From: an uncultured Ignavibacteriales bacterium
GTDB taxonomy: Bacteria > Zixibacteria > MSB-5A5 > GN15 > FEB-12
DNA: 64,000 nucleotides
Direction of reading: 5' to 3'
NCBI GenBank assembly: GCA_964540105.1
Contig: CAZILL010000001.1
Location: 1,034,063-1,098,062, forward strand
Both the position numbers and the translations under genes were made by a program. The stretch's first letter is position 1. Every line of letters starts with the position of its first letter. Shown one piece after another: positions 1 through 63,228 of this stretch. The notes under the pieces are model-generated. The model was given only the letters and a program-made list of their open reading frames with translations, was not told the DNA's origin and ran no database searches.

Positions 1-455
1 ACGCAGAAATCCATCCCACCGTTCCGCAGATGATTCATCGCCTCAACCGTCCTGCGGAAACTATCCGGCCGCTTGCGAATGAAATTGTGCACCTCTTCGG
101 TGCCGTCGATGCTGACCCCTACGCGGCCAATCTCCAGTCGGACAAAATCAGCGACAACCTGGGGCGTTACGGCATAGCCATTTGTAATCAGGTTCACGAT
201 CAGGCCGTTTTCTCTAAGATGGGCCGCCAACTCGCGCCAATCATCGCGAAGAAGCGGCTCACCTCCCGACAGCGTGACATGCTTGCACCCCAGTGCTGTA
301 AGGTCATCGATCAATTTCAGCGCTTCAGCAGTCGTCAATTCATCAGGCCGACGTTTCCCTGCCGCCGTACCGCAGTGGATGCAGCGCATATTACACGCGA
401 AGGTTATCTCCCAGACAACCATCTCGGGATAAAATTTGAAACCGTTGCCGCTCAT
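1..455 (-). CDS. Radical SAM enzyme, N-terminal part (gene runs off the left edge)
   Basis: Absent from the ORF track because it has no in-window stop. Reverse translation from the ATG at 455..453 gives MSGNGFKFYPEMVVWEITFACNMRCIHCGTAAGK...VTLSGGEPLL. This contains the CxxxCxxC cluster motif (CNMRCIHC) and the GGEPLL SAM motif. Its start and the upstream gene's stop overlap as ATGA. Confidence 0.8.
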   Translation of the reverse strand, partial: MSGNGFKFYPEMVVWEITFACNMRCIHCGTAAGKRRPDELTTAEALKLIDDLTALGCKHVTLSGGEPLLRDDWRELAAHLRENGLIVNLITNGYAVTPQVVADFVRLEIGRVGVSIDGTEEVHNFIRKRPDSFRRTVEAMNHLRNGGMDFC

Positions 456-1804
456 TTCTGGGTCTCCTGTGTGGTTACGGGATTCGATTGCTGGCGTGAC
501 TGCGCAACCAATTCGAGCATCGGGCGTAAATTGTATTTCCAGCTGTCGCAAAATTCAGATTCGTCTATCGAGCGGTCTGACCGCCTCGACGGACACCCCC
601 CCATGCAGATTGGAAGGATCTCGCAATCGCGACAACTCCCCACCTCGAACGGATCGAAGGAAAACAGGCGAAGAAATTCCTCGTTCTTGTAGTCGACATC
701 CTGAAGGATGTTACCTGTGACTTTCGTCTTATCCCCCACATAGTTGAAACAGCGGTACAGATCACCGTCGGGGTCAATCAGGAACGAATTCCTCCGCTGC
801 GCGAGGCAGAAGGTCAGTATTGGCTGCGGAAGCTTCTCGACGCGGAATCCCTCATCCAGCAGAATCCGGTAGTACTCCAATTCGGCCTGCGAATATGCCT
901 TTGTCTCGAAGCAACTTTCAGCGATGTTGGCGCACGCCACTGTCGCAGGCTCGAGATGCCCAAAATAGATGCAGGTTTTGTTCTTCAGTCCGGCCGCATC
1001 GAGTTCGACCAACAATTCTCTGATCGTTTCAGGCGTAAACGACCTATCGACATTGACGCGGATCACAGTCGGAATCTGTGCGCAGGCGTAAGCGAGATTC
1101 GTTAGTATCACGTCGAAACTATCCTTGCCGTTCTTCAAGGGACGTTTACGATTGTGTACCCTCGCAGGCCCATCGATTGTTACCTGAATTTCCCCCAATC
1201 GCAGGTTCGCAAATCGGTCGACTTTCTCTTTCGTGAGAAGATAACCGTTGGTCATGACGCCACCAGCACTGAACTTGAACTTGTATTGCTTCTCAAGATC
1301 TACAAAGGACGCCGTCAGATCTTCAATAATGTCCATCGCCAGCAAGGGTTCACCGCCATACCAGGTAACCTGGAAATCTTCGAGCTTTGGCGCGCGCCTT
1401 TCGATGAATTCTATCAACCCCTCTACCACTTTGGGCGTCATGCGGCCACTCTTGTTGGCCTCAAAGCAATAGTCGCATCCCATGTTGCATGCCATCGTCG
1501 GCGCGACCACCAGACCGAGTGATGACATGTCGTACCGCGAATCACGGTACCGGAATTTCAGTCGTTCCAGTTCACTCCCATCGGCTTCGGTGACAAACCC
1601 GCCGTAGCCAAGTTGACTAAGCAACAGCTTCTCTTCTTCCGTCAATTGAACCGGCTGGCCGTCGGACAGCATGACACATAGCCGCTCATAGACGGCGAAG
1701 TTTTCCGCGGTCATCATTCCGACCGCACCCGTCAGGGCGTTGAAAGCTAGGCAGTTTCCGTCACGCAAAGGGTGTATGTGGTTGTATCGTGATATGTACG
1801 GCAT
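452..1804 (-). CDS. Radical SAM/SPASM-domain peptide-modifying enzyme (maturase-like)
   Basis: CNMGCDYC (CxxxCxxC) and GGEPLL are present. The C-terminal SPASM signature is exact: GDLYRC (Gx4C) followed by CRDCEILPICMGGC (Cx2Cx5Cx3C). About 105 aa precede the cluster, which could be an RRE-like peptide-binding domain. AAGGA lies 7 nt upstream of the ATG. Confidence 0.85.
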   Translation of the reverse strand: MPYISRYNHIHPLRDGNCLAFNALTGAVGMMTAENFAVYERLCVMLSDGQPVQLTEEEKLLLSQLGYGGFVTEADGSELERLKFRYRDSRYDMSSLGLVVAPTMACNMGCDYCFEANKSGRMTPKVVEGLIEFIERRAPKLEDFQVTWYGGEPLLAMDIIEDLTASFVDLEKQYKFKFSAGGVMTNGYLLTKEKVDRFANLRLGEIQVTIDGPARVHNRKRPLKNGKDSFDVILTNLAYACAQIPTVIRVNVDRSFTPETIRELLVELDAAGLKNKTCIYFGHLEPATVACANIAESCFETKAYSQAELEYYRILLDEGFRVEKLPQPILTFCLAQRRNSFLIDPDGDLYRCFNYVGDKTKVTGNILQDVDYKNEEFLRLFSFDPFEVGSCRDCEILPICMGGCPSRRSDRSIDESEFCDSWKYNLRPMLELVAQSRQQSNPVTTQETQK

Positions 1805-4978: not shown

Positions 4979-7900
4979 GTGAAGGCGCTCACGCTTGCTG
5001 CTTTGTGGTCGGTTGGCCTCTGCCTGTTTGCGGCTCAGTCCTTTGCGTTCCACCCGATCTTTTATACTCGCATCGACTTTCCGGTAGGCGGCAGGGAACC
5101 ACGCTCGATGTGCACCGCAGATTTCGATGGGGATGGCGCACTGGACTTGGCAACGTCGAATTTCGACAACGGCAATGTCTCGATTCTCCGCAACAATGGG
5201 AATGGAACCTTCGGCGTCGCTGACAATTATGGCGTGGGAAGCGGACCTCTTACAATATTTGCTACCGATGTTGACAAGGATGGCCATCCTGACATCGTGG
5301 TGGCTAACTACAGCTCCAATGACATTTCAGTGCTGAAGAACAACGGTAACGGCACGTTTGGGACCGCCACGAACTATGGAGTTGGTATTAGCTGGCCTTA
5401 TTCTCTTTGTTCAGCCGACTTTGACGCCGACGGATGGCCGGACATAGCCGTTGCTAATTCGGGCACAAATACTGTGTCCATGTTGAAGAATCACGGCGAT
5501 GGAACTTTCGCTGATGGTGTCAGCTACACTTGTGGCAGCAACCCGCATTCGGTCTGTGCTGCTGACTTTGATGGGGACGGAAGTTTCGATCTGGCCGTGG
5601 CCGATTATGCTGCAGACAGCGTTTCGATTCTCAAGAACAATGGCAACGGTACTTTTGCAGCTCTGGTAAGTTATAAAGTTGGGTCCGGTCCGTGGTATGT
5701 GCTTGCAGCGAATTTCGGCGCAGACGCAAAGCTTGATCTTGTGGCTGTAAACTATGGTTCAAACACGGTATCCGTCCTTATCAATGACGGTTCCGGTGCA
5801 TTTGGGACAGCTGTTGACTACCCGTCAGGAGGTAGGTCACTTTGTGCCAGTTCTGGCGATCTGGACTCAGACGGAGACATCGACCTGATAGTACCGAGCA
5901 TCGACGTACAAAGTGTCTCAATCCTGAAGAACAACGGAGTCGGCACATTTGCTGCACCGGTTAGCTATGCGATTGAGAATGAAGGGTGGGCCGCTTGTGT
6001 TGGTGATCTTGATGGGAATGGAAAACCTGACGTTGCAGTGGGAAACCGATGGCCGATGCCCAGTGTCTCGGTTTTCATGAACGATGGAAATGGAGGACTT
6101 CGAACCCCACCAGAATATGGGGTTGACAATCCTCAATCTATCACTTCAGCAGATTTCAATGGCGATGGACAATTTGACGTAGCCACGGCAAACTGGAATT
6201 CCAACGCGATATCCACATTGAAGGGTAATGGCGACGGGACTTTTGAGCCTGCTATCAACTACGCTGTGGGCAGCCACCCGATTTCAATAGCTACAGCGGA
6301 TGTGACTAGCGACGGGAAGCCCGATTTGGCAGTCGTGAACTACTCCTCAGGCACAGTATCCGTCCTAAGGAACAACGGTAACGGTGAATTCGGAAATCGA
6401 CTTGACTACTTTGTAGGATCTTGTCCGATTTCAATCGCTGCCGGAGATCTGGATGGAAACGGATCGACTGACCTGGCGGTCGCCAACTTCTGCTCCAATA
6501 ACATCTCTATCCTACTCAATGACGGTGCTGGCACTTTTAACGCTTCAGCTAACTACTCTGCCGGACTCAACCCCTACTCTTTACAGATCGCTGATATCGA
6601 TGGTGACGGAAAGAAGGACGTAATAGATGTCTGCACCGGAGATGCAGGGGCATACTTCTTCAAGAACAACGGAAACGGCACTTTCTCTTCGGGAGTGTAT
6701 TCTGCGATAGGAGGTTCGCCACGCTTCGTGTGTGTTCATGATGTGAACATGGATGGAAAGCCTGACTTGATTATAGCTAATGGATCTAACAATCCCTATA
6801 ACTGGGGGGCCGGTGTCCGAGTATTGATAAACAGTGGCAGCGGTACATTTTCAACTCTCGCTGTTTACTCACCTGGCTACAATCCGTATTCACTTGCTGT
6901 AACGGATTTTGACGGCGACGGCCTATCAGAAGTGGCTGTGGGAAATGCAGGTTCTGCTAACATCTCGATAATGGAAATCAATGGCGACGGCACACTTACC
7001 TTGAGAAACAACTACGGGGTGAATGGTGGAATGCTCTCTATTTGCGCAGCAGACTTCAATGGTGATGGCAAGACCGACTTGGGAGTAGCTTTGTATGCAA
7101 AGAATGCGATCACCGTTCTCCTGAACCAATCCGTACCGAGCATACCTCTATTCGATACTACTTCGACTACCGACACAGCCAACGTTTTCTTTGTCAAACA
7201 GGCGGATATGGATTTGGACAATAACCCGGATATTGTATTCACCGGCAATAGTTCAGACAGTCTGTTTATCATTTACGGGAAACCAAACGGCACGCTGGAA
7301 AAACAGCGATCTTACTTGAACATCAAGAACGCCGCCATCGCGATTGACTTCATCAACGGTGATACTCTACTGGATATCGCGGCCCGGACAATGACGAAAC
7401 TGTATGTGCTCTTGAATCTGGGAGGCCGCAATTTCAGCATCGATTCAATGACTACAGGCGCTTCGCCGATGGTGTATTCGCCGAACGTGGCGACGTTTCC
7501 GACAATCACCACCGGCTACTTTGACGGAGATGCCAAGAAAGATATCGTTGTCAATCCCGGTGTACTCTTGTCAGGCAATGGTCTTGGTCAGTTCCCATCT
7601 AATCAGACACTGCCGTTCACGCTCGATTTTGTCGGCACAGCTGATTTCAACGGAGACGGCAGAGATGACATTATTGCTACGAACGGCGACTCCGCCCGAA
7701 TCTATCTGAACAACGGAACGGGGGCCTTCACTCTGTCGGCAGCCACTCGGATCGGGTATCGGGCGTATGATGTGGTATCGCTTGCCTCAGACATCGATTT
7801 GAACAATGACGGCAAACCTGATGTGGCGTTGGTGACGGGCATTTCCACAGGAACTAATGACACGAGTGTGGTAACGCTGATTGTAGGGAATGGAACCGGT

Positions 7901-9091
7901 GGGGTTGCCAGTTCGCAGGCGATTCCGATTGTGGGGAGCGCCTTGAGCCTGTCGGTGGCAGACATTGACAAAGACAAGAATCTGGATATCAGTGTGGTCA
8001 ACAGCACGACCAAGGACTTGACCATATATTCAGGGAACGGTTTAGGGGGTGTAATTGCTACGCTCAAAGAATCGATGGGAGCTAATCCAGTACTTTCATT
8101 AGTGGCGACGGATTTGAACCGGAGCGGAAGTGTTGATTTTGTGGTTGGTGGTCAGGCGGGGAGCCCGATTCTGACGGCCCTTAACCAACTGCCGCCTGAT
8201 CCGATTCGACCTGAGGAGATGGTCGCCACGGGGTATGGGAATATCTCCATCTCCGAGATCAACCCGCAGGGAAGGACGATCTCAAGAGGATTGAGCACGG
8301 TGGCCGGTTCGGCCTTTGGCCGGTCTGATTTCGACGGGGACGGCGTGATTGACCAGCGAACCTGGGACTACAATCTGCAGGACGGCGAGTACATGATTGT
8401 GATACGCCCCAATCCGGGAACCACCCCTCCTGGTCCGGTGTTTTCGACCGACATTCGAATTAATGGTTCTGATCAATTGCAGTCACGTGTGTTTCATGAC
8501 TATCGCGATGCCTGGGGGAGTCTACAGAAAACAGCCGATGCTGCCGCCTTTGACAGCCTCATCTTCTATTTCAAGGTGGAATCGGTGTCCTCGATCAAGC
8601 CGAACAACGGCGTCAGGACGCACAGTCCACGTCCCGGCTTTGCGTGGGATCGTTTGATCGACTCGTCTGGAGTGCTCAAATATCAGTTTCAGCTGGATCG
8701 CTATTATGACTTGCGAGCCCCGATCTACGACGATTCGAGTCTGACGGCACCGAGATTCTTTGTCAATGCGTCCCTGGGTCTTGATTCGGTCTATTACTGG
8801 CGGGTGCGTGCTAAACGAGCGGGGGGGTGGGACTTATACTCTCGCACTTTTGCGGCGTACATAGGACCTGGCTGTTGCCTGAGTACCACCGGCAACACCG
8901 ACGGCTCACCCGACGACGTGGTTGACATTTCGGATGTGTTTGCGGTAGTCGATTATCTGGGCGCGAGCATTCCGCTTTCAAGCTGTTCGCCTGAGAATGA
9001 TGTCAATATCGATGGCACCATAGATATTTCCGATCTGTTCGCTCTGATCGATTACTTGAGTGGGACAGCGCAGCTGCCACCGTGCGCATAA
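4979..9091 (+). CDS. Secreted FG-GAP/VCBS-repeat protein (1370 aa) with a C-terminal 72-aa dockerin-like module
   Basis: GTG start with a signal peptide (LCLFAAQSFA). There are 21 repeats of about 47 aa, each with a DxDxDG Ca-loop (for example DFDGDGALD and DVDKDGHPD) and an SVLxNNGNGTF strand. The last 72 aa read CCLSTTGNTDGSPDDVVDISDVFAVVDYL...ENDVNIDGTIDISDLFALIDYL...PPCA. Confidence 0.9.
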   Translation: MKALTLAALWSVGLCLFAAQSFAFHPIFYTRIDFPVGGREPRSMCTADFDGDGALDLATSNFDNGNVSILRNNGNGTFGVADNYGVGSGPLTIFATDVDKDGHPDIVVANYSSNDISVLKNNGNGTFGTATNYGVGISWPYSLCSADFDADGWPDIAVANSGTNTVSMLKNHGDGTFADGVSYTCGSNPHSVCAADFDGDGSFDLAVADYAADSVSILKNNGNGTFAALVSYKVGSGPWYVLAANFGADAKLDLVAVNYGSNTVSVLINDGSGAFGTAVDYPSGGRSLCASSGDLDSDGDIDLIVPSIDVQSVSILKNNGVGTFAAPVSYAIENEGWAACVGDLDGNGKPDVAVGNRWPMPSVSVFMNDGNGGLRTPPEYGVDNPQSITSADFNGDGQFDVATANWNSNAISTLKGNGDGTFEPAINYAVGSHPISIATADVTSDGKPDLAVVNYSSGTVSVLRNNGNGEFGNRLDYFVGSCPISIAAGDLDGNGSTDLAVANFCSNNISILLNDGAGTFNASANYSAGLNPYSLQIADIDGDGKKDVIDVCTGDAGAYFFKNNGNGTFSSGVYSAIGGSPRFVCVHDVNMDGKPDLIIANGSNNPYNWGAGVRVLINSGSGTFSTLAVYSPGYNPYSLAVTDFDGDGLSEVAVGNAGSANISIMEINGDGTLTLRNNYGVNGGMLSICAADFNGDGKTDLGVALYAKNAITVLLNQSVPSIPLFDTTSTTDTANVFFVKQADMDLDNNPDIVFTGNSSDSLFIIYGKPNGTLEKQRSYLNIKNAAIAIDFINGDTLLDIAARTMTKLYVLLNLGGRNFSIDSMTTGASPMVYSPNVATFPTITTGYFDGDAKKDIVVNPGVLLSGNGLGQFPSNQTLPFTLDFVGTADFNGDGRDDIIATNGDSARIYLNNGTGAFTLSAATRIGYRAYDVVSLASDIDLNNDGKPDVALVTGISTGTNDTSVVTLIVGNGTGGVASSQAIPIVGSALSLSVADIDKDKNLDISVVNSTTKDLTIYSGNGLGGVIATLKESMGANPVLSLVATDLNRSGSVDFVVGGQAGSPILTALNQLPPDPIRPEEMVATGYGNISISEINPQGRTISRGLSTVAGSAFGRSDFDGDGVIDQRTWDYNLQDGEYMIVIRPNPGTTPPGPVFSTDIRINGSDQLQSRVFHDYRDAWGSLQKTADAAAFDSLIFYFKVESVSSIKPNNGVRTHSPRPGFAWDRLIDSSGVLKYQFQLDRYYDLRAPIYDDSSLTAPRFFVNASLGLDSVYYWRVRAKRAGGWDLYSRTFAAYIGPGCCLSTTGNTDGSPDDVVDISDVFAVVDYLGASIPLSSCSPENDVNIDGTIDISDLFALIDYLSGTAQLPPCA

Positions 9092-9429: not shown

Positions 9430-10122
9430 ATGGGTAAACAGTGGCTCTTTATCGGCTTCTTGACAGCTTCTTTGTTTCTGACATCATCTTGTTCGAAAAA
9501 ATCCACTGAACCTGATGCAAAGACTGGCACAGTAACCGACATTGACAACAATGTTTACAAGACGGTGAAAATAGGTAATCAGTGGTGGATGGGGGAGAAC
9601 TTGAAAGTGACCCATTATCGCAATGGCGAAGCGATCCCCGACATAACAGACGTTCCCGCATGGGTAGGCCTTACCACTGGCGCTTACTGCGAATACAACA
9701 ACGACGTTCAGAATGTAACCACCTATGGCAGATTATATAACTGGTATGCTGTAGCTGACGGCCGGAACATAGCGCCAGCAGGGTGGCATTTGCCGACGGA
9801 CTCCGAGTGGACGACCCTCACTGACTATCTTGGTGGTAATGCTGTTGCCGGTGGCAAGATGAAAGAAGCAGACACAACTCATTGGGCAGACCCCAACACG
9901 AGTGCTACGAATGAAAGCGGATTCTCCGGGTTGCCTGGTGGTTACCGTAACTACTATGATGGCACCTACTTCGGCATAGGGCACAGCGCCAACTTCTGGT
10001 CCTCTACGGAAGGCAGCAGTGGGGACGCCAGGTACCGAAGCCTGAATTTCTACGATTCAACCGTCGACCGTAACTACTTCAATAAGGGAGACGGTTTCTC
10101 CGTCCGCTGCGTCAAGGACTAA
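9430..10122 (+). CDS. Fibrobacter succinogenes major paralogous domain (FISUMP) lipoprotein
   Basis: A lipobox-like LTSSC is present. The motifs GTVTDIDNNVYKTVKIGNQWWMGENLKV...YGRLYNWYAV...APAGWHLPTDSEW...AGGKMKE...SGFSGLPGGYR...FWSST...GFSVRCVKD match the hallmark motif string of this family. Confidence 0.85.
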   Translation: MGKQWLFIGFLTASLFLTSSCSKKSTEPDAKTGTVTDIDNNVYKTVKIGNQWWMGENLKVTHYRNGEAIPDITDVPAWVGLTTGAYCEYNNDVQNVTTYGRLYNWYAVADGRNIAPAGWHLPTDSEWTTLTDYLGGNAVAGGKMKEADTTHWADPNTSATNESGFSGLPGGYRNYYDGTYFGIGHSANFWSSTEGSSGDARYRSLNFYDSTVDRNYFNKGDGFSVRCVKD

Positions 10123-11052: not shown

Positions 11053-11194
11053 GATCGAACCTGATCGACGACAGGCGGTTAGATTGTAAGGTTATGGTGT
11101 CGAGCGGGTTACAAAAGTCGGCTACGCGTATCCCTGTCTCCCAGCTTATTCCCCGAATCATCGCCTTCAGCAAAATACCTTGAGTCTGCCGCTA

Positions 11195-11308
11195 TCCGGT
11201 CGTCCCGCGGAGAATGACGTTAATAGGGACGGGTCGGTATACATTTCTAATCTGTTTGCCATCATTGACTACTTGCACGGAACGACTCTGCTGCCGGCGT
11301 GTCCGTGA
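11195..11308 (+). pseudogene. Orphan remnant of the dockerin-like C-terminal module
   Basis: It translates to LSGRPAENDVNRDGSVYISNLFAIIDYLHGTTLLPACP*, matching positions about 35-72 of the 72-aa module found on three intact genes. The open frame reaches back only to 11090, with no start codon and no upstream domain. Confidence 0.7.
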
Positions 11309-17363: not shown

Positions 17364-19721
17364 ATGCGCTTGAGATTAATCCTGATCGCTACGGCAACAC
17401 TGGCCTTAGCCGGTCCCGCGATAGCCGATGATCTGTACAAGGTGTCTGTCAGCAACGCAAATGAGGCTCGTCGCCTTGCGGCCACCAGCGCCGAGGCGCT
17501 GATTCGGTTAGATGACGGATATCTGGTGCTAATTTCTCCTGACGATCTCGGGTCGATCGGCGAGAGCGGCCTTACTTTTGCGCTGATCGCCCGCAACGTC
17601 GATCGGGAGAGGCTGGCAGTTGATAACCGGCTTGATCGGGCCAATGTTTCGCGGTTTACACTTCTCCATGAACAGGGGAATTTCCGGCTGTACTCTCTGG
17701 ACCGGCCACTTTCGTTCTACCGTGGGATTGAGCCTGAAGTGTCCGCAATATCAGCGGAGCCGCTTGCGATCAGCTTCCCGCAACCGGGAGCCTCACCCGC
17801 GGAGTTGATAGCACAGCTGTCGACGACCGATATTCCGCTCCTGACCTTGATTTCCGGCGTGCGCCAGGACTCCTTAACGTCGTATGCCAGCCGCCTTCAG
17901 GCCTACTACCGACGACCGGCAGGCACCGATTCGAACTATGCATCGCGAGATTGGATCGCCGCCCGATTCACGGCGTTCGGCTATGATTCGGTTGTGGTAG
18001 ATAGCTTCACGACGACCATCGGCGGGCTCTCGACCCCGTGCCAGAATGTGCTGGCGTATAAGATTGGGACAGTCTATCCAAATCATCAAGTGATCATTGG
18101 GGCGCATCGGGATGGCGTAGCGGCGTCCCCCGGCGCCGATGACAACGGCTCCGGAACGGCGGCTGTTCTTGAGGTGGCGCGTGTACTCAAAGATGTTCCC
18201 ACCGATGTCACTGTGATCTTTTCGCTGTACGATGCCGAGGAGAATGGGCTACTCGGTTCGGCGGATTATGTGCGACGCGCCTACACCCGCGAGGACAGCA
18301 TCGTGTATATGCTCAACATGGATATGATCGCTCAGGCAACCAACCTCGATTCGGCCAATATCTACCACGGCGCCGCGCTCCAGTACTCGAATCTTTGGAT
18401 AAAGCTGGCTGACTCGCTTGCGGGCATCACCAAGGGGGTCCTCAAAGGGACCAGCGGCGGCTCGGATCATTATCCGTTTCAACAGAAGGGGTACGAAGTC
18501 AGCTTTGTGCAGGAGGGAGTCTTTTCGACCGTTTATCATACCTACCGGGACAGCACGTCGTTCATGGATTTCGAATACATGACGCGCATGGTTCAGGCAT
18601 CACTGGCCACCGCCTATACGGTCAGCCAGTCATTTGCACCCGCGGCAACCCTGGTACTCAATTATTCAGCGGGGTATCCGGTCATGCTTACCCCCGGCGC
18701 AGCAGCCGCGGTCGAAATCAACATAGCCGCCTTCTATGGGGCGTCTGTCGCTCCCGGGTCGGTCACGTTGAACTACAGAATCGAGAATGGATCATGGCTG
18801 CAAAGCGCAATGAACCCGGGGGGGATCGGCTATTCTGCCTCGTTACCGGGACTCGCCTGTCTTGAACGAGTTCAGTACTATGTCAGCGCTCAGGATCAGA
18901 CCACGAGCCAGATGTACTACGCTCCCTCAGCCAACGATCCGATCAAGGCCTGGGCCGCTTCGAGCAAGACGACAATCTTCTCCGATAACTGTAACACCGA
19001 TCTCGGATGGACTGTCGGGGGGTACTGTGTCGACGGACCCTGGACTTTGGGGGTGCCGGTTGGTCTGGGGGACCGCGGGGATCCGCCCACAGCGTTTGGG
19101 GGCGCCGGTTCCTGCTGGCTGACGGACAATGTCTATGGCAACTCCGACGTCGACAATGGAAACACGACGCTGATGTCGCCCAAGTTTTCGGCTGACGTGA
19201 CAACCCGAGTTGAATATGCAGTCTGGTATTCGAATGATTTCGGGGCGGCTCCACTCACCGACGCCTTCAAGGTATACATCTCCAACAATAACGGCATGTC
19301 ATGGACATTGGCCAACTCGATCGGTCCGGTCTTTCACGCCAGCGGGGGGTGGTATGTCTATTCGCTCTGGGTGAAGGACTATCTCACGCCGACTTTGGAC
19401 ATGCGTTTGATGTTCGAGGCGGACGATCTTGGTTCTGGTTCAGTGGTCGAAGCTGGACTGGATAACATTATAGTCGAGAAATTCGCCTGTGCCCCCCCGC
19501 CGTGCTGTGTTGGCACAACGGGCAACACCGACGGTTCGACCGACGACGTAGTTGATATCTCCGATGTCTTTGCGCTCGTCGACTACCTGGGGGCGAGCAT
19601 TCCGCTTGCCGATTGCCCAGAGGAAAATGATGTCAATACTGACGGTCCCGTGGACATCTCTGATATGTTTGCCTTGATCGATTATCTTGGCGGAACAGCG
19701 GTATTGCCCCCATGTCCGTAA
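17364..19721 (+). CDS. Secreted M28-family zinc aminopeptidase with a C-terminal 72-aa dockerin-like module
   Basis: A signal peptide is present. The M28 metal-ligand blocks GAHRDGV..GADDNGSGTAAVLE, YDAEENGLLGS and GGSDHYPF are all present. The terminal sequence reads CCVGTTGNTDGSTDDVVDISDVFALVDYLGASIPLADCPEENDVNTDGPVDISDMFALIDYLGGTAVLPPCP. Confidence 0.85.
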   Translation: MRLRLILIATATLALAGPAIADDLYKVSVSNANEARRLAATSAEALIRLDDGYLVLISPDDLGSIGESGLTFALIARNVDRERLAVDNRLDRANVSRFTLLHEQGNFRLYSLDRPLSFYRGIEPEVSAISAEPLAISFPQPGASPAELIAQLSTTDIPLLTLISGVRQDSLTSYASRLQAYYRRPAGTDSNYASRDWIAARFTAFGYDSVVVDSFTTTIGGLSTPCQNVLAYKIGTVYPNHQVIIGAHRDGVAASPGADDNGSGTAAVLEVARVLKDVPTDVTVIFSLYDAEENGLLGSADYVRRAYTREDSIVYMLNMDMIAQATNLDSANIYHGAALQYSNLWIKLADSLAGITKGVLKGTSGGSDHYPFQQKGYEVSFVQEGVFSTVYHTYRDSTSFMDFEYMTRMVQASLATAYTVSQSFAPAATLVLNYSAGYPVMLTPGAAAAVEINIAAFYGASVAPGSVTLNYRIENGSWLQSAMNPGGIGYSASLPGLACLERVQYYVSAQDQTTSQMYYAPSANDPIKAWAASSKTTIFSDNCNTDLGWTVGGYCVDGPWTLGVPVGLGDRGDPPTAFGGAGSCWLTDNVYGNSDVDNGNTTLMSPKFSADVTTRVEYAVWYSNDFGAAPLTDAFKVYISNNNGMSWTLANSIGPVFHASGGWYVYSLWVKDYLTPTLDMRLMFEADDLGSGSVVEAGLDNIIVEKFACAPPPCCVGTTGNTDGSTDDVVDISDVFALVDYLGASIPLADCPEENDVNTDGPVDISDMFALIDYLGGTAVLPPCP

Positions 19722-19817: not shown

Positions 19818-20489
19818 ATGTCCATGAACAGAGTTGTGTTACTTTGCCTGCCGCTCTTGTTGGCGGTTACGGCCAAGGCTCAGGTTTCGGCGGGGATTTC
19901 GATCACCGATGAAGGTGTCAAGAGCTTCTACCTCGCCATCGGTCAGACCTACCGCGTTCCGGAGCGGGAAGTAGTGGTCATCCGTGAGCGCCGAATTCCC
20001 GATGAGGAATTACCGGTTGTCTTCTTCATAGCTTCTCGGGCTCGTGTAAAGCCGGAAGTTGTGGTGGACCTTCGTCTTTCCGGGAAATCCTGGATGGACA
20101 TTACTCTTCATTACCATCTGCGTCCGTCAGTCTACTACATCGCTCTGGATTGCGATCCGGGGCCGGAATACGGGCGAGCCTACGGACACTGGAAACGTCC
20201 TCGAAAGGAATGGAACAGAATCCGATTTGAGGATGATGACATTGTCAAGATGGTCAACCTGCGGTTTGTCACAAATCACTATGGTCTCAAGCCGTCAGAA
20301 GTGATTCGACTTCGCGGCGAACATCGCGATTTTGTCAGGGTGAACCATGAGGTCTCAAGCGCGGAATACCGTTCCCGCCACGGGAAGTCGGAGAAACAGA
20401 GCGAGGGACGAGGTCACGACCGAGAGAACAAACATGGCAAAAAGAACGGCCATGGCAACGGTCATAAGGGGGAGAAGCACGACGACTAA
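19818..20489 (+). CDS. Secreted hypothetical protein with a His/Lys/Gly-rich tail
   Basis: AAGGAG RBS and a signal peptide (LLLAVTAKAQ). I recognised no family. The tail reads RHGKSEKQSEGRGHDRENKHGKKNGHGNGHKGEKHDD. Confidence 0.55.
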   Translation: MSMNRVVLLCLPLLLAVTAKAQVSAGISITDEGVKSFYLAIGQTYRVPEREVVVIRERRIPDEELPVVFFIASRARVKPEVVVDLRLSGKSWMDITLHYHLRPSVYYIALDCDPGPEYGRAYGHWKRPRKEWNRIRFEDDDIVKMVNLRFVTNHYGLKPSEVIRLRGEHRDFVRVNHEVSSAEYRSRHGKSEKQSEGRGHDRENKHGKKNGHGNGHKGEKHDD

Positions 20490-20918: not shown

Positions 20919-23423
20919 CTACGGACAGGCGGGAAGCGGTCTGCCGAGTACGAGATAGTTGACCAGAATGATGATGTCTATGATATCAACTCTCCCATCC
21001 CTGTTCACGTCTTCTTCCGCGACGCAGGATGACAATGGCCCCGATCCGAGAAGATATGACACCAGCGCCATAACATCCGAAAGGTCAGCAGTTTCCGCGA
21101 GATCGCCGTCGACGTTTCCGGTGACACCCACACAGCAGGAAGTATCAGCTCTGACCGGACTTAGCGCGTAGGGTGTCTCGAGAGGACCAAGTCCGACCTT
21201 GAGCGACCCGTAGTCGAATGCTGTCACGTTCACATAATATGGGACTAAGGGCAATAGGCCATCGATGGTGTAGTTATATTCGTAGTATTTCAGATAATTG
21301 TCATCGGTGAAATACATGGCTCGAGTGACTGAGTCGAGGATAGGAAATGAGAACGAAGTCGGGTCCCACCTCGCCTGCAGGAATGAGTCCGGCGGCTTCG
21401 GATGTGCCACGGTGTCAGGATAGATTTTGTGAATCCGTGTTGCCGACGGAGTAGATCGATTCGCTCCCTCGGGTTCGAAGTAAAAAACCGAATCCGCAAG
21501 GCCGATTCTGTTGTACGGATTGTTCTCATAGCGATGGGTCGAGTCATTGAAGAGCAGCATCGGATCCCAGTTGGGGTCACCGATCGGTCCATACAGATCG
21601 CGCAGCTGTTGGAGTGTGAACGGTGAGTCGCGCAGGACCCATTGCCCGTTCCCGAATGTCCATTTCCTGAAATCGAGTCTGTCGTAGCTTTCCAGTTTGC
21701 TGAAACTGGAGGGTTGAAGGTCACGAGACAGATAGACGTTGTACCCCTCAAAATCCCGCTCTCGGGAGAACTCGTCGAGGCCAGTTTCCGATTTTGCACC
21801 GTTGAACCTAACCCGTATTCTCCAGTAGAGACTTCCGTCTATGTATGTCGAGCCGTTGCCCCACACTTTGGGGGCATTCGGCGGTCGGGGACCTTTGAAA
21901 TCCGGTACGCCGTCCCCCTCCTGCCACAAAGTGTCATATCTGGCAGATACAGAATCGTAACAGATTCGATACTTACCGGCATACCCGTCGCTGTCGGTGT
22001 CGACTCCCGGATTGTCGTACATCCATGACGCCCACGCGGAGTTAAGACCAAGATCGGTGAAGTCGAGATTATCGTAATATGCTGACGGATTTCCCGCGAG
22101 GAGGTTGATCCTGTAGTTGTTGGGATCGGTATGAAAATCCTCTCCGGCTATGTATACAAAAGAGAGCGGCAGCTCCTGTCCCGGACTGATATCGAACGGA
22201 CCAACCGAGAGCAGGTAGCGAACGTCTGCGCCCAGGGCAGCCCCGAGGGTAACAGGTGAACTCGGAGGGACCCAGATGGAATCAGTGGGTGAGATGGTTC
22301 CAGTCATTATCTGGTCATAGTCGATTTCCCGGTTACGCAGCAGGTGGTATTTGTTTGCATCACCTGCTGGAACGCCCAACCCCCCTGTGGGTCCCATGGG
22401 ACGTAATTTCGCCCGTGTCTGGGGACCGAAATCACCCAAATCGGGAAACCACCAGTTAAAGGAGAGAGCAGATGATTCGAGGGGAGTGCGTATGAAACGG
22501 GTAGCTGTCACGTGAGGCACTGACCTGGATGCATGAAGGTCCCCACCTACCGGATCGCCGTCATTGTCAAAGATATACGCGATGTTCACAGTATCTTGGA
22601 AGTTACAGCTTCCCGAAAATCCGCTGGGAGTCGGGAGATCGCGGCGGAAACCGGCGTGGTCATCGTGGGCACCTAAACTGCCGTCAACCCCCCGCCCGTA
22701 CACGTCGCCATCGACGCAGATCCCCATGTAGAAATCGCGAAGTTCGTTCTGCTGAATGTTCCTGATACGATAGTCGAAAAGAACAAAGTCCTCGGCGTAA
22801 GGGAGGGCCCAAGCGTAGCTGCTCTGCGTGATTTCGATCCCCAGTGGTCTGTGACGTCGCCCCGAGACTGCGTCAGGTTGGAGTGAAACACCGTTTCTCG
22901 ACACTGTAAAGGTATCAGTGTGTTTCGAAATAAAATCCTGATCCGAGACAGCTTGAGGGTGGTAGGAAGGATCGCTCGGATTCGAAGAGCGCTTCACTAT
23001 ACTGCCGAAAGGACTCTCGTCGGGGTAAACCTCGAACATATTAGGTGTCCAGCCGTCGGCGCCGGTCGATACGAGCGTATCTTGGCCGACCAGAGCCCCA
23101 AACCAAAAGAGCCCCGCAAACAGATAGCGTGATCCGGATCCCTTGGGGAACTCGCAGGGGGGAACCTTCAAGCCAGTGAATGGATCGATATCTCCGCCGC
23201 CACTGCCGTACGCTCCAAACAGACCGTGGTTCGAAATCGTCAAGACGATCCTGCCGACATTGTGGACTGCCGATTGGAGCAGGATCGACGCCGGAGACAT
23301 GACCGCCTCGTTCGTCAGTTTCTCTCGTAGGTCCTCGAATTTGGCGCGGGCCGATACAGTGCCGACACATGGCAGAAAGATTAGCGCCGCGAGCATGCTG
23401 AGTCGAACTGTTCTGAAAACCAT
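20919..23423 (-). CDS. Secreted hypothetical protein (834 aa) with a C-terminal 72-aa dockerin-like module
   Basis: GGAGGA RBS and a signal peptide (LIFLPCVGTVSA). I recognised no catalytic family in the body. The terminal sequence reads CCVGVTGNVDGDLAETADLSDVMALVSYLLGSGPLSSCVAEEDVNRDGRVDIIDIIILVNYLVLGRPLPACP. Confidence 0.75.
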   Translation of the reverse strand: MVFRTVRLSMLAALIFLPCVGTVSARAKFEDLREKLTNEAVMSPASILLQSAVHNVGRIVLTISNHGLFGAYGSGGGDIDPFTGLKVPPCEFPKGSGSRYLFAGLFWFGALVGQDTLVSTGADGWTPNMFEVYPDESPFGSIVKRSSNPSDPSYHPQAVSDQDFISKHTDTFTVSRNGVSLQPDAVSGRRHRPLGIEITQSSYAWALPYAEDFVLFDYRIRNIQQNELRDFYMGICVDGDVYGRGVDGSLGAHDDHAGFRRDLPTPSGFSGSCNFQDTVNIAYIFDNDGDPVGGDLHASRSVPHVTATRFIRTPLESSALSFNWWFPDLGDFGPQTRAKLRPMGPTGGLGVPAGDANKYHLLRNREIDYDQIMTGTISPTDSIWVPPSSPVTLGAALGADVRYLLSVGPFDISPGQELPLSFVYIAGEDFHTDPNNYRINLLAGNPSAYYDNLDFTDLGLNSAWASWMYDNPGVDTDSDGYAGKYRICYDSVSARYDTLWQEGDGVPDFKGPRPPNAPKVWGNGSTYIDGSLYWRIRVRFNGAKSETGLDEFSRERDFEGYNVYLSRDLQPSSFSKLESYDRLDFRKWTFGNGQWVLRDSPFTLQQLRDLYGPIGDPNWDPMLLFNDSTHRYENNPYNRIGLADSVFYFEPEGANRSTPSATRIHKIYPDTVAHPKPPDSFLQARWDPTSFSFPILDSVTRAMYFTDDNYLKYYEYNYTIDGLLPLVPYYVNVTAFDYGSLKVGLGPLETPYALSPVRADTSCCVGVTGNVDGDLAETADLSDVMALVSYLLGSGPLSSCVAEEDVNRDGRVDIIDIIILVNYLVLGRPLPACP

Positions 23424-51628: not shown

Positions 51629-52025
51629 ACGACAATCAAACCTTTCGTGGGGCGGATAAGTTTCCGCCTCGTTAGAAACTCCGCATCTGAGTCATTGATC
51701 AAACCATTGACGGGAAGATCATCCAAAAGAAACCCGGGTTCGACAATTGCCGCCCGGGTCAATGCAGATTCTAACAAGAATAACATGGAATGTTGAATTC
51801 TACAAGCCCTTTCTTGGACTTCTATGGAGAATGTCGGTCGTGGAGTCGGCCCCGCCGGAAGCAAGAGGTGAGTTGGCAGCAGATTGCCCTGCATTGACTT
51901 ACCAGTAGGAGTTGACGTCGTGAAGAGGATCAGCCTTTCAGTTTTTGTCGTTGACTTTCACTATCTATGATCGCAATTTGCTTAGAAACTACGAACCAGC
52001 AAAACCTGATATCGATGTAACCAAT

Positions 52026-53087: not shown

Positions 53088-53117
53088 AATCTTTTCGCTG
53101 ACGGATTGTGACCTCAG

Positions 53118-56651: not shown

Positions 56652-56657
56652 AAAGAG

Positions 56658-57860: not shown

Positions 57861-58309
57861 GGATTCAAGATATGGCGCAAACGACCACCATGCCCACTTT
57901 CTCTCTCCTCCCTCCCAATGGTTGGGAGGATCAGACTGTCTATACGTTTAGGGGTCCCGACGACAGCGGGCATCAGCACTTTGTGACCTTGACCATCGAC
58001 CCCTCACCGGGCTCCGATGATGTCGCTGAATTCGCCCGAGTGCGGATCGATGCCACCCTCACCACTCTGCAGGGAGCTGAAACCCTCAAAGACGAGCCGA
58101 AAGAGCTTCCGAACGGTAATCCGGCTCATGAGTGTGTCTATAAGTGGATACCGGTTGACGGGACGGTGCGGTTCGTGAAGATTGTCTTTCTGTTGATTGG
58201 CGGTCGCGGGTACACATTCTCGGGGACTTTCTCCAGAAAGACCATCAAGACCATTGCCCTCGAGATGGATCAGATGGTGAACAGCTTCACTCCAACGCTT
58301 TCCAAATGA
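57857..58309 (+). CDS. DUF1795 (DcrB/Eag-type effector chaperone family)-like protein
   Basis: PTFSLLPPNGWEDQTVYTFRGP...FVTLTIDP...L..F...RIDATLTTLQG...YTFSGTF fits the DUF1795 F-x-LP-x-GW-x-D-x-T/S-V opening and size (about 145 aa). The GTG at 57857 overlaps the upstream stop; an alternative ATG lies at 57872. Confidence 0.6.
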   Translation: MRIQDMAQTTTMPTFSLLPPNGWEDQTVYTFRGPDDSGHQHFVTLTIDPSPGSDDVAEFARVRIDATLTTLQGAETLKDEPKELPNGNPAHECVYKWIPVDGTVRFVKIVFLLIGGRGYTFSGTFSRKTIKTIALEMDQMVNSFTPTLSK

Positions 58310-58325
58310 GTGAACGAAGATAGCC

Positions 58326-59192: not shown

Positions 59193-59369
59193 TGGATTTT
59201 ACGAATAGCTCGACGATTGGCGATTTGTGAATGATGCTCACAAGGGACGCTCATGTGTGATGGCAGCAGAGGCCGTGCCAGAGGCCGGAGCGGCGGGCGA
59301 ACCCGCGTAACGGTCGAACCGCAACTCGTGGAGCCAGCGGTCAGAGTGTCGCGCGTCTCCGTGCAGGAC

Positions 59370-60485: not shown

Positions 60486-60647
60486 ATCAGCGAAATGGGC
60501 TATCGACAGGTATACTCCAGAACAAACCGCTTGACATAGTAGGTCGGTAATGCGGATATTTCTGATCGCACAGTCCGGCCCTTTGGGATGAATGCCGGAA
60601 GGTAACTGTTCCAGAAGATATAAGAGGCAAGGATTGCGGTATAACGA

Positions 60648-63208: not shown

Positions 63209-63228
63209 ACATAAAACCGGAGGTAAGT

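What the first reader, a model, noticed from the sequence alone, without database searches (positions are those of the whole stretch)
8873..9091. Fixed 72-aa, four-cysteine dockerin-like C-terminal module shared by three unrelated secreted proteins (plus one orphan remnant)
Three proteins with unrelated bodies end in a module of exactly 72 residues: the FG-GAP protein (8873..9088), the M28 peptidase (19503..19718) and the 834-aa unknown (20922..21137, minus strand).

The module has invariant Cys at positions 1, 2, 38 and 71. It contains two EF-hand-like loops each followed by a helix: TGNxDGxxxxxxDISDVFALVDYL, then ENDVNxDGxxDISDxFALIDYL. The module ends -PPC(A/P) at the very C-terminus.

The duplicated Ca-loop/helix layout is dockerin-like. 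The conserved CC...C...C frame, the strict length and the strictly terminal position look more like a dedicated sorting or anchoring tag with disulfide staples. No cohesin-like partner is visible in this window.

The FG-GAP and M28 copies are also roughly 80% identical at the nucleotide level by eye. That suggests module shuffling or gene conversion. Four occurrences in 64 kb implies a large family genome-wide.
Basis: partly seen in the sequence, partly recalled or inferred. Interest (0 to 1): 0.55.

Follow-up and report, generated by a model that had tools for sequence, protein, structure and literature searches.

The report
Disulfide-framed dockerin tag on secreted proteins
Three unrelated secreted proteins in this window end in the same 72-residue, four-cysteine version of a dockerin (a calcium-binding docking module known from cellulosomes); it belongs to a large, poorly annotated subfamily in Zixibacteria-like uncultured bacteria that probably hooks proteases and adhesin-like proteins onto cohesin-like surface proteins.

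Summary
Three proteins with unrelated bodies and signal peptides (FG-GAP 4979..9091, M28 peptidase 17364..19721, 834-aa unknown 20919..23423 on the minus strand) each end in a 72-aa module with Cys at positions 1, 2, 38 and 71. A decayed half-copy lies at 11183..11305.

The module is a true type I dockerin. It passes Pfam's Dockerin_1 threshold when scanned alone, and a confident model (pLDDT 94.8) superposes on solved dockerins.

It also defines a discrete subfamily: a CCxGx[T/R]GN prefix, a linker Cys and an LPxCP-COOH tail. A search blind to cysteines still recovers the frame and the terminal position. Named members are mostly Zixibacteria. Cargo is peptidases, FG-GAP, PKD and TSP3 proteins, not glycoside hydrolases.

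It is not the T9SS sorting tag, because two relatives carry the module internally plus a real Por_Secre_tail. Gene conversion is not supported (71% nucleotide identity, 43% at third codon positions).

No cohesin lies in the window or about 10 kb beyond each end. Elsewhere I found a Cys-rich cohesin-like domain family: 74 of 88 carriers end in a T9SS tail and 8 end in a dockerin. It shares proteins and contigs with these modules and sits next to homologs of this window's cargo.

Best reading: a disulfide-stapled dockerin for surface docking. Binding is untested.

The parts
4979..9091 (+). FG-GAP/VCBS-repeat secreted protein (1370 aa) carrying module A; signal peptide about residues 1-23
   Evidence: ORF listed. 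Pfam FG-GAP_3 at 9e-119 with 18 stretches. N-terminus VKALTLAALWSVGLCLFAAQSFA|F read by inspection.
8873..9088 (+). Module A: 72-aa four-Cys dockerin (CCLSTTGN...PPCA), followed directly by the stop codon
   Evidence: Translation. Pfam Dockerin_1 31.0 bits against a gathering score of 22.9. This is the sequence modelled by AF2: pLDDT 94.8. Foldseek gives TM 0.6-0.76 to type I dockerins.
17364..19721 (+). M28 family peptidase (785 aa) carrying module B; signal peptide about residues 1-21
   Evidence: Pfam Peptidase_M28 at 1e-35. N-terminus MRLRLILIATATLALAGPAIA|D. A 35%-identical homolog that also ends in a dockerin lies about 2.5 kb from a 2963-aa cohesin-like, T9SS-tailed gene in L017.
19503..19718 (+). 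Module B: 72-aa four-Cys dockerin (CCVGTTGN...PPCP)
   Evidence: Translation. Dockerin_1 23.2 bits. NCBIfam dockerin_GC 29.5 bits against a cutoff of 29.
20919..23423 (-). 834-aa secreted protein with no known body domain, carrying module C; signal peptide about residues 1-25
   Evidence: Only Dockerin_1 is found by Pfam. Body homologs (42% and 36% identity over more than 730 aa) lie 2-4 kb from cohesin-like genes in L085 and L014. Those homologs lack the dockerin.
20922..21137 (-). Module C: 72-aa four-Cys dockerin (CCVGVTGN...PACP), the most divergent copy (50% aa identity to A)
   Evidence: Translation. Dockerin_1 31.2 bits. Alignment.
11183..11305 (+). Orphan relic: second half of a module only (profile positions 32-72), ending PACP plus stop. 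C38 is now R, D51 is now Y, D54 is now N. No upstream body.
   Evidence: hmmsearch E = 2e-15. Sequence. Identical in two independent assemblies, L003 and L004.

Best explanation
The module is a lineage-specific subfamily of the type I dockerin fold, found in Zixibacteria and neighbouring FCB-group bacteria.

Anatomy. Two Ca-binding F-hand loop/helix repeats sit inside a cysteine frame. The frame has three parts: a 7-residue N-terminal extension (CCxGx[T/R]G, followed by the invariant N8 that opens loop 1), one Cys in the inter-repeat linker, and an LPxCP tail that ends the protein.

Proposed steps:
1. The carrier proteins are exported by Sec. Signal peptides are shown by sequence.
2. In the oxidising periplasm the four Cys form two disulfides, most likely C2-C71 (a covalent version of the known N-to-C dockerin clasp) and C1-C38. 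These staple the small Ca-dependent fold. This step is inferred.
3. The stapled dockerin docks its cargo non-covalently onto a cohesin-type receptor at the cell surface. Cargo is peptidases and FG-GAP, PKD, TSP3 and beta-helix proteins. The best candidate receptor is a Cys-rich cohesin-like domain (about 200 aa) carried mostly by T9SS-anchored proteins of about 860 to 3100 aa. A few adaptor proteins have two cohesin-like repeats and themselves end in the Cys-framed dockerin. This step is inferred from architecture and neighbourhood; binding is not shown.

The module is therefore an anchoring or assembly tag, not a secretion signal. The system parallels the cellulosome-like assembly proposed for Cloacimonadota, but it displays proteases and adhesin-like proteins.
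For: Dockerin identity:
- Pfam Dockerin_1 is above its gathering score for all three isolated modules.
- A PDB sequence search hits only dockerins and EF-hand proteins.
- The AF2 model has pLDDT 94.8 and pTM 0.81. The first 33 Foldseek PDB matches are all dockerins, with TM up to 0.76 and rmsd mostly 1.6-3 A.

The frame is real and specific:
- In 82 C-terminal representatives from separate 50%-identity clusters, C1 is present in 78, C2 in 81, C38 in 82 and C71 in 82. 54 of the 82 are exactly 72 aa.
- In a Cys-masked search, 99/120 hits keep the linker Cys, 64/75 have CC directly upstream, 110/116 have a Cys just after the core, and 108/116 end within 6 aa of the core.
- CCCC modules are 161 terminal against 13 internal. 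Cys-less modules are 2 terminal against 132 internal.

Disulfide pairing:
- DSSP on the model shows a beta-bridge between residues 5 and 70, so the two termini lie side by side.
- The recurring 2-Cys variant is .C.C (8 cases). C..C never occurs and .CC. occurs 3 times.
- Non-covalent N-to-C clasps are known to stabilise dockerins and to support cohesin binding (PMC3821032).

Not a T9SS tag:
- P0059 (a Zixibacteria S8 peptidase) and P0099 carry internal modules plus a Por_Secre_tail.

Candidate partner:
- P0122 has Pfam Cohesin at 37.7 bits (gathering score 24.1) and ends in a variant of the Cys-framed module: it starts N-C-C (scored .CCC) and ends ...CAK.
- 183 metagenomic relatives of its cohesin-like repeat were found.
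- The family profile hits only cohesins in the PDB; the top 20 are all cohesins, best E = 2e-4.
- Of 88 carrier ORFs, 74 end in a T9SS tail (E = 1e-15 to 1e-32 against Pfam-verified tails), 8 end in a dockerin, and none have both.
- 12 of 22 loci of at least 15 kb also hold C-terminal dockerin modules.
- Homologs of this window's M28 and 834-aa proteins lie 2-4 kb from cohesin-like genes in L017, L014 and L085.

Precedent: C-terminal dockerins plus a T9SS-CTD scaffoldin have been proposed for Cloacimonadota (PMC8542988).
Against: - No cohesin or cohesin-like gene is in the 64-kb window or in about 10 kb beyond each end. Whether this genome encodes one is unknown.
- The cohesin assignment of the candidate partner is weak. 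Similarity covers only the N-terminal 55 or so of about 200 residues. hhalign against clearer cohesins gives 25% probability.
- Co-occurrence on contigs may mostly reflect shared genomes, not specific linkage.
Three-Cys variants (.CCC 10 cases, C.CC 8 cases) do not fit a strict two-disulfide scheme.
- No binding, Ca or redox data exist.
- The organism is not identified directly. Zixibacteria is inferred from the names attached to relatives.
Confidence: 0.6

Rival explanations
1. The module is a dedicated C-terminal sorting or secretion signal, analogous to the T9SS CTD or PEP-CTERM. A specific export or attachment machine would recognise it and possibly cleave it. The dockerin resemblance would be only ancestral.
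For: - The 4-Cys form is strictly C-terminal (161 terminal against 13 internal) and ends in a near-invariant C-P-COOH.
- The cargo classes (peptidases, FG-GAP, PKD, CARDB) are typical of T9SS cargo.
- Homologs of the 834-aa body carry a weakly T9SS-CTD-like tail in place of the module.
- No cohesin lies nearby.
Against: - P0059 and P0099 have the module internally and a Pfam-verified Por_Secre_tail at the C-terminus, so the two domains do different jobs.
- There are 13 internal CCCC copies, and tandem internal modules with a related C-x3-C...C...CP frame in P0041.
- The fold is a helical F-hand pair, not a beta-sandwich, and there is no transmembrane segment.
- No Por_Secre_tail, PEP-CTERM or other sorting model hits the three proteins.
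- Both helix faces are strongly conserved, as expected for a binding surface.
Confidence: 0.12
2. The module is a Ca-binding stabilising or glycan-binding appendage with no protein partner. It might, for example, bind the cell's own surface polysaccharide. Many dockerin-only genomes are known.
For: - No cohesin is in the window.
- Module genes lie next to surface-polysaccharide or nonulosonic-acid clusters in the window, L006 and L010.
- From my own knowledge: dockerin-like modules without cohesins are widespread. The survey by Peer et al. 2009 is cited in PMC8542988, but I could not read it.
Against: - Cohesin-like domains occur in the same proteins (P0122, L012, L014, L020, L040) and on the same contigs as the modules.
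- The scaffoldin-like split of their C-termini (T9SS tail or dockerin, never both) is hard to explain otherwise.
- Polysaccharide clusters are large and common, so adjacency in 3 loci is weak evidence.
Confidence: 0.2
3. The similarity among the copies reflects recent module shuffling or gene conversion within this genome, not long-term selection on a functional tag.
For: A and B share 79% amino-acid identity although their bodies are unrelated.
Against: - A/B nucleotide identity is 71%: 85% at codon positions 1 and 2, but 43% at position 3.
- A/C and B/C are 53% and 51% identical at the nucleotide level, and the flanks are unrelated at 22%.
- The same frame is conserved across clusters that are less than 50% identical, in several phylum-level lineages.
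Confidence: 0.03

Closest known systems
Type I dockerin of clostridial and ruminococcal cellulosomes (Pfam PF00404; e.g. PDB 4FL4, 2VN6, 4DH2, 1OHZ)
   Same: - The duplicated F-hand Ca-loop/helix layout and three-helix fold are shared (TM 0.6-0.76).
- It usually sits at the C-terminus of secreted proteins.
- The two repeats are internally symmetric: 9-12 of 15 helix positions are identical in A and B. In cellulosomes this symmetry underlies dual-mode cohesin binding.
- The N- and C-termini are adjacent, as in the known intramolecular clasp (PMC3821032).
   Different: - It has a four-Cys frame: a 7-residue CCxGx[T/R]G prefix, a linker Cys and an LPxCP-COOH tail.
- Loop 1 is 14 residues, not 12.
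- E41 is invariant.
- The hosts are diderm FCB bacteria.
- Cargo is peptidases, FG-GAP, PKD and TSP3 proteins, not glycoside hydrolases.
- Only 21 of 59 modules reach about the Pfam threshold.
Cellulosome-like system proposed for Cloacimonadota (Ca. Stygibacter; Williams et al. 2021, PMC8542988)
   Same: - It is also in an FCB-group diderm.
- Signal-peptide enzymes, including S8 and C25 peptidases, carry C-terminal dockerins.
- A cohesin-bearing scaffoldin is anchored through a T9SS-type C-terminal domain.
- It too was inferred only in silico.
   Different: - There, the cohesins and dockerins were recognised by standard InterPro models, and the scaffoldin has tandem cohesins plus CBMs.
- Here, the dockerin is Cys-framed.
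- Here, the candidate receptor is a divergent Cys-rich cohesin-like domain of about 200 aa, usually present once per protein.
- Here, no CBM or GH link was seen.
NCBIfam NF041540 'GC-type dockerin domain-anchored protein'
   Same: It is a curated concept of a C-terminal dockerin-like anchoring domain. Module B just reaches its cutoff (29.5 against 29 bits), aligned over positions 8-60. In my hits, GC...C dockerins such as P0005 and P0069 are bracketed by one N-side and one C-side Cys. That these correspond to NF041540 is my assumption.
   Different: Modules A (23 bits) and C (no hit) fail the cutoff. Only 1 of 59 subfamily modules passes. The model's ends do not align to the CC prefix or the PxCP tail, so it describes a different Cys frame.
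T9SS C-terminal sorting domain (Pfam Por_Secre_tail PF18962 / TIGR04183)
   Same: It has a similar size (about 70-90 aa), a strictly C-terminal position, the same FCB lineages and the same kinds of cargo. On homologs of the 834-aa protein the two domains appear to be interchangeable.
   Different: The sequence and fold are unrelated. The two co-occur in single proteins (P0059, P0099), where the T9SS tail takes the terminal position.

Membership tests
Type I dockerin (Pfam PF00404 Dockerin_1) | Sequence score at or above Pfam's gathering threshold (22.9 bits) | tested here: met
   Isolated modules score 31.0 (A), 23.2 (B) and 31.2 (C) bits. Within the full-length proteins, A and B fall below the threshold (17.5 and 18.3 bits) and C passes (25.6 bits). 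Across the subfamily, 21 of 59 isolated modules reach E <= 1e-4.
Type I dockerin (Pfam PF00404 Dockerin_1) | Two tandem F-hand segments: a Ca-binding loop rich in Asp/Asn followed by a helix | tested here: met
   Loop 2 is the canonical 12-residue DxNxDGxxDxxD. Loop 1 is 14 residues (N8..D21). Helices are predicted at 19-31 and 52-63. Ca binding itself was not tested.
Type I dockerin (Pfam PF00404 Dockerin_1) | Three-helix dockerin fold superposable on solved dockerins | tested here: met
   The AF2 model has pLDDT 94.8. The first 33 Foldseek PDB matches are all dockerins, with TM-score up to 0.76 and rmsd as low as 1.6 A.
Type I dockerin (Pfam PF00404 Dockerin_1) | Binds a cognate cohesin module | not testable with these tools
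   No cohesin is in the window or about 10 kb beyond each end. A candidate cohesin-like family was found on other contigs. Binding has not been tested.
Cellulosome (cohesin-dockerin assembly of carbohydrate-active enzymes) | Dockerins are borne mainly by glycoside hydrolases and other CAZymes | tested here: not met
   The carriers here are an FG-GAP protein, an M28 peptidase and an unknown protein. Among 57 full-length family members, none of the 25 most frequent Pfam families shown (of 38 found) is a GH. The commonest are TSP_3, FG-GAP_3, PKD and Beta_helix, with single members carrying various peptidase families.
Cellulosome (cohesin-dockerin assembly of carbohydrate-active enzymes) | A scaffoldin with cohesin modules is encoded in the same genome | not tested
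   Only 64 kb plus about 20 kb of this genome could be read.
NCBIfam NF041540 GC-type dockerin | Score at or above the curated cutoff (29 bits) | tested here: not met
   B scores 29.5 bits (pass), A scores 23 bits (fail) and C has no hit. Only 1 of 59 subfamily modules passes at about the cutoff.
T9SS C-terminal sorting domain (Por_Secre_tail / TIGR04183) | Sequence match to the CTD models, and a beta-sandwich fold | tested here: not met
   Neither Pfam nor NCBIfam finds a CTD on the three proteins. The model is helical. A profile of 74 T9SS tails gives no significant hit on any window protein; the best is E = 0.24.
T9SS C-terminal sorting domain (Por_Secre_tail / TIGR04183) | Acts as the sole C-terminal export signal of its protein | tested here: not met
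   P0059 and P0099 carry the module internally and end in a Por_Secre_tail (33 and 29.9 bits; gathering score 27).
Tripartite sorting signals (PEP-CTERM, LPXTG, GlyGly-CTERM and similar) | A short motif followed by a hydrophobic transmembrane helix and a basic tail | tested here: not met
   The sequences end ...LPPCA...LPPCP and ...LPACP, with no hydrophobic helix or basic tail. No such NCBIfam model hits them.
Cohesin (Pfam PF00963), for the candidate partner domain found in P0122 and L012-L091 | Pfam score above the gathering threshold, and homology across the whole beta-sandwich domain | tested here: inconclusive
   P0122 scores 37.7 bits (gathering score 24.1), but no single stretch is significant on its own. 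The family profile's top 20 PDB hits are all cohesins, but only over its first 55 or so residues, best E = 2e-4. hhalign against P0117's cohesins gives 25% probability. No structure prediction quota was left.

The most novel reading that the evidence does not exclude
Zixibacteria and neighbouring FCB lineages run a previously undescribed, non-cellulosomal surface-display system. Dozens of Sec-exported proteases, FG-GAP, PKD and TSP3 proteins per genome would carry a covalently clasped (two-disulfide) dockerin. This would plug into a new Cys-rich cohesin-like domain borne by T9SS-anchored surface proteins and by dockerin-terminated adaptors. That would be a hierarchical 'proteolysome/adhesome' built on cellulosome logic in diderm bacteria.
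Probability: 0.35. Interest if true: 0.7.

Novelty: new variant of a known kind. Interest (0 to 1): 0.5.

Why it matters
Cohesin-dockerin assembly is best understood in Gram-positive cellulose degraders. Its role in the many 'non-cellulosomal' genomes is a long-standing open question.

This subfamily offers a well-defined, abundant and easily recognisable case in an uncultured diderm phylum:
- The dockerin has a built-in covalent clasp.
- The cargo points to protein degradation and adhesion, not to polysaccharide breakdown.
- There is a concrete, testable candidate receptor that is anchored by the T9SS.

If confirmed, it would do three things:
1. Explain how Zixibacteria-like bacteria organise their exoproteome.
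2. Supply naturally disulfide-stabilised dockerin/cohesin pairs for protein engineering.
3. Justify a dedicated profile model. Current Pfam and NCBIfam models miss most members, which are deposited as 'hypothetical protein'.

Tried and rejected
- AF2 on the three window copies alone gave pLDDT 43 and was unusable. It was replaced by a 59-sequence alignment.
- Model coordinates are not exposed, so Cys-Cys distances could not be measured.
- The first word-indexed search with three sequences found only 3 proteins.
- The genome-contig scan returned only 2 loci, one Ignavibacteriales and one Latescibacterota, so genome-wide copy number and cohesin content of named genomes could not be assessed.
- The Foldseek afdb50 library was unavailable.
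- Peer et al. 2009 is not held.
- Gene conversion was rejected on third-position identity.
- The T9SS-tag and tripartite sorting-signal readings were rejected.
- A marginal cohesin-like hit in L001 (E = 4.5e-4) lies in a 122-aa ORF that overlaps opposite-strand genes. I judged it spurious.
- The claim that homologs of the 834-aa protein end in a T9SS CTD has only weak support (E about 8e-3), so it is reported as suggestive only.
- Extending about 10 kb beyond each window edge found an rSAM/ABC cluster and a T6SS locus, but no cohesin, T9SS tail or further dockerin.
- Rfam found nothing in the window.
Full report
OBSERVATION

The three claimed modules are in the sequence exactly where stated. 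A is at 8873..9088(+), B at 19503..19718(+) and C at 20922..21137(-). Each is 72 residues, runs to the stop codon, and has Cys at positions 1, 2, 38 and 71.

They terminate three different proteins: a 1370-aa FG-GAP protein (4979..9091), a 785-aa M28 peptidase (17364..19721) and an 834-aa protein with no other recognisable domain (20919..23423, minus strand). The three bodies are unrelated; the best pairwise match is 38 aa at E about 0.01. All three start with Sec-type signal peptides, judged by inspection.

A profile of the three copies recovers them at E = 1e-40 to 1e-43. It finds only one further match in the window, the orphan at 11090..11305. Only the second half of that stretch (11183..11305, profile positions 32-72) is module-like. 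The orphan has lost C38 and two loop-2 Asp residues, D51 and D54. It is identical in two independent assemblies, so it is a decaying relic.

Copy C ends PACP and departs from the quoted helix motifs. The A/B nucleotide identity is 71%, not about 80%.

WHAT IT IS

The module is a real type I dockerin:
- Scanned alone, all three copies exceed Pfam's Dockerin_1 gathering score: 31.0, 23.2 and 31.2 bits against 22.9.
- A profile search of PDB sequences returns cellulosomal dockerins first.
- A three-sequence AF2 run failed (pLDDT 43). With 59 diverse family members the model is confident: pLDDT 94.8, pTM 0.81, helices at 19-31, 39-42 and 52-63.
- The first 33 Foldseek matches in the PDB are all dockerins, with TM up to 0.76 and rmsd as low as 1.6 A.
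- Loop 2 (D43..D54) is a canonical 12-residue F-hand loop. Loop 1 (N8..D21) is two residues longer.
- The two loop-exit/helix segments are near-duplicates: 9-12 of 15 positions are identical in A and B.

THE CYSTEINE FRAME IS A FAMILY PROPERTY

An exhaustive HMMER search of 1.84 billion cluster representatives found 7,923 proteins at E <= 1e-3 and 708 at E <= 1e-10.

Among the best 152 proteins analysed (the 150 returned plus earlier hits), 82 carry the module at the very C-terminus:
- C1 is present in 78 of 82, C2 in 81, C38 in 82 and C71 in 82.
- G7, N8, E41 and D54 are also invariant.
- 54 of the 82 are exactly 72 residues long.

That profile rewards cysteines, so I repeated the search with the core only (positions 3-70) and every Cys masked to X. 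Among the top 120 hits of this Cys-blind profile:
- 99 keep the linker Cys.
- 64 of 75 with an intact N-side have CC immediately upstream, and 71 of 75 have at least one Cys there.
- 110 of 116 have a Cys just after the core.
- 108 of 116 end within six residues of the core.
- The hits without the frame align only from core position 8. They are ordinary dockerins that lack the xGx[T/R]GN prefix.

Over 497 modules, CCCC modules are 161 terminal against 13 internal. Cys-less modules are 2 terminal against 132 internal. The subfamily is therefore discrete.

Existing models cover it poorly. Only 21 of 59 isolated modules reach about the Pfam threshold. Only 1 of 59 reaches NCBIfam's 'GC-type dockerin' cutoff. 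Most database entries are 'hypothetical protein'.

Where a source names the organism, it is nearly always Candidatus Zixiibacteriota (Zixibacteria), with a few FCB-group and Calditrichaeota records. One carrier is in an Ignavibacteriales MAG. It is diderm (AcrB/HlyD, OmpA, Fib_succ_major) and probably belongs to this group.

No paper in the searchable library mentions both Zixibacteria and dockerin.

WHAT THE CYSTEINES PROBABLY DO

The coordinates of the model were not available, so distances could not be measured. Three indirect lines point to two disulfides, C2-C71 and C1-C38:
1. DSSP on the model shows a single beta-bridge between residues 5 and 70. This puts the N-terminal extension alongside the C-terminal tail.
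2. The recurrent two-Cys variant is .C.C (8 cases, including both modules of P0059). C..C never occurs and .CC. occurs 3 times.
3. Dockerins are known to depend on a non-covalent 'intramolecular clasp' between residues just before the first loop and residues at the C-terminus. Breaking it lowers Tm by up to 20 degrees and weakens cohesin binding tenfold (PMC3821032).

The frame looks like a covalent version of that clasp, plus a second staple to the inter-repeat linker. Three-Cys variants exist (18 cases), so the scheme is not absolute. A metal-Cys4 site cannot be excluded.

WHAT IT IS NOT

It is not the product of recent gene conversion. A and B are 85% identical at codon positions 1 and 2 but 43% at position 3. 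A/C and B/C are about 52% identical, and the flanks are unrelated. The copies are old and held by selection on the protein.

It is not the T9SS sorting signal or a tripartite sorting signal:
- No such model hits the three proteins.
- The fold is helical.
- Two relatives carry the module internally and end in a Pfam-verified Por_Secre_tail. They are P0059, an S8 peptidase from a Zixibacteria MAG, and P0099.

It is not cellulosomal in content. The commonest Pfam families among 57 full-length carriers are TSP_3, FG-GAP_3, PKD, Beta_helix and DUF7948/SBBP. Single members carry peptidases C1, C10, M23 or M12B, an amidase, or a lectin-like domain. No glycoside hydrolase is among the 25 families shown, of 38 found.

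THE PARTNER QUESTION

No cohesin is encoded in the window. All 43 ORFs scanned by Pfam, of 46 candidate ORFs, are negative. About 10 kb beyond each end holds an rSAM/ABC cluster and a T6SS locus, and no cohesin. Five neighbourhoods of relatives also lack one.

Cohesins do exist around this family, however. P0117 and P0055 alternate Cys-less dockerins with Pfam Cohesin domains (46 and 58 bits). P0122 has two cohesin-like repeats (37.7 bits against a gathering score of 24.1) and ends in a variant of the Cys-framed module: it starts N-C-C and ends ...CAK.

Using P0122's repeats as bait, a metagenome scan found 183 relatives, of which 80 loci (789 kb) were kept. They define a domain of about 200 aa with four invariant cysteines of its own and a W-x-D-C-G-D-N motif.

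The cohesin assignment is a candidate, not established:
- The family profile's top 20 PDB hits are all cohesins, but only over its first 55 or so residues (best E = 2e-4).
- A profile-profile comparison with P0117's cohesins gives only 25% probability.

The architectures are nevertheless striking. Of 88 ORFs with the domain:
- 74 end in a T9SS sorting domain (E = 1e-15 to 1e-32 against the Pfam-verified tails of P0059 and P0099).
- 8 end in a dockerin module. Four of these are CC-framed. Three of those (L012, L014, L020) share P0122's layout of two cohesin-like repeats plus the module; the fourth is L040, whose ORF is cut off at the contig start.
- None have both, and the other 6 are truncated or unclassified.

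This is the division of labour expected of anchoring and adaptor scaffoldins.

Further links:
- 12 of the 22 loci of at least 15 kb also hold C-terminal dockerin modules. This may mostly show that the two families share genomes.
- More specifically, homologs of this window's own cargo lie 2-4 kb from cohesin-like genes. The M28 peptidase has a 35%-identical homolog, also dockerin-terminated, in L017. The 834-aa protein has homologs of 42% and 36% identity in L085 and L014.
- Those two 834-aa homologs lack the dockerin. They end in a tail that is weakly T9SS-CTD-like (E about 8e-3). This hints that direct T9SS anchoring and dockerin-mediated docking are interchangeable ways of holding the same protein at the surface.

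MECHANISM PROPOSED

1. Sec export. Shown by sequence.
2. Oxidative folding with two disulfides, plus Ca binding. Inferred.
3. Non-covalent docking of diverse cargo onto cohesin-like domains of T9SS-anchored surface proteins, with adaptor proteins allowing hierarchy. Inferred from architecture, co-occurrence and neighbourhood.

How the cargo crosses the outer membrane is unknown.

The closest described system is the in-silico cellulosome-like assembly of Cloacimonadota. There, C-terminal dockerins on S8 and C25 peptidases and on GHs are paired with a cohesin scaffoldin bearing a T9SS-type CTD (PMC8542988).

VERDICT

It is wrong on gene conversion, and a dedicated sorting tag is unlikely.

The module is a new, well-delimited variant of a known kind. 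What would make it more than that is the candidate Cys-rich cohesin-like receptor family and the non-cellulosomal cargo. Both need a whole-genome scan, a structure and a binding test.

Noticed in passing
window 51945-64000 (continues in L093 11128-20743): This is the 5' part of a type VI secretion locus. It holds a PAAR protein (51945-53087), a 1177-aa OmpA-domain protein (53118-56651) and TssB (63229-63669). L093 continues with TssC, Hcp, VgrG, TssE and TssG. The ClpV-like ATPase is split into two ORFs that overlap by 4 nt (60648-62105 and 62102-63208). The same split is seen in an independent assembly.
   Followed up: partly
window 23705-43765: A large surface-polysaccharide or nonulosonic-acid cluster (PALP, DegT, CMP-transferase, GT28, Wzz/GNVR, two GT4s, hexapeptide transferase, NeuB, GNAT, PseB-like dehydratase) starts right next to the 834-aa dockerin protein. 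Module genes also abut polysaccharide clusters in L006 and L010.
   Followed up: partly
window 452-1804 and L092 3878-8232: Three radical-SAM genes in a row (one with a SPASM domain, one B12-binding) followed by an ABC exporter. This looks like a RiPP-type maturation cluster.
   Followed up: no
window 9430-10122: A Fib_succ_major-domain lipoprotein (lipobox ...LTSSC) lies directly downstream of the FG-GAP dockerin protein. A 223-aa secreted ORF with no known domain (19818-20489) sits between the M28 and 834-aa genes.
   Followed up: no
L015 727-3267 and about 70 similar ORFs in L012-L091: This is a family of T9SS-tailed proteins, mostly about 860 aa with giants up to 3121 aa. They carry a Cys-rich cohesin-like domain with four invariant Cys and a W.DCGDN motif. 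In L015 and P0122, which I read directly, it is followed by a Cys-less dockerin-like segment. I found no description of this domain family.
   Followed up: partly
L014 5535-8159; L085 13611-16214: Homologs of the window's 834-aa protein body lack the dockerin. They end in a tail that is weakly T9SS-CTD-like (E about 8e-3), an apparent C-terminal domain swap on a conserved body.
   Followed up: partly
P0004, P0006 (proteins): S8 subtilases preceded by 8-10 tandem Cys-less dockerin modules (Dockerin_1 at 1e-72 to 1e-81). This poly-dockerin architecture is unusual.
   Followed up: no
P0041; P0005 and P0069; L013, L045 and L058: Other cysteine frames occur on dockerins. P0041 has four internal tandem C-x3-C...C...CP modules. 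P0005 and P0069 have GC...C two-Cys tandem modules. L013, L045 and L058 have C-terminal xCGD...NCD...CxxC(P/K) variants. Cys bracketing of dockerins seems to have arisen several times.
   Followed up: no
L008 10001-10378 (P0167): A 125-aa protein consists only of a lipoprotein-type signal (…VIIGC), a short linker and the Cys-framed module. It lies among genes with T9SS tails.
   Followed up: no
L007 2184-4391 and 8925-10228; L010 8345-10309: Several modules are separated from their bodies (Peptidase_C1, CARDB/TSP_3, Amidase_3-PKD) by frameshifts or split gene calls. This explains many of the short 'module-only' database entries.
   Followed up: partly
NCBIfam NF045500: The C-terminal 60 or so positions (314-375 of 377) of the 'Omp28-related selenoprotein' model match all three modules (E = 2e-6 to 9e-6). 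That family apparently also ends in a dockerin-like domain.
   Followed up: no
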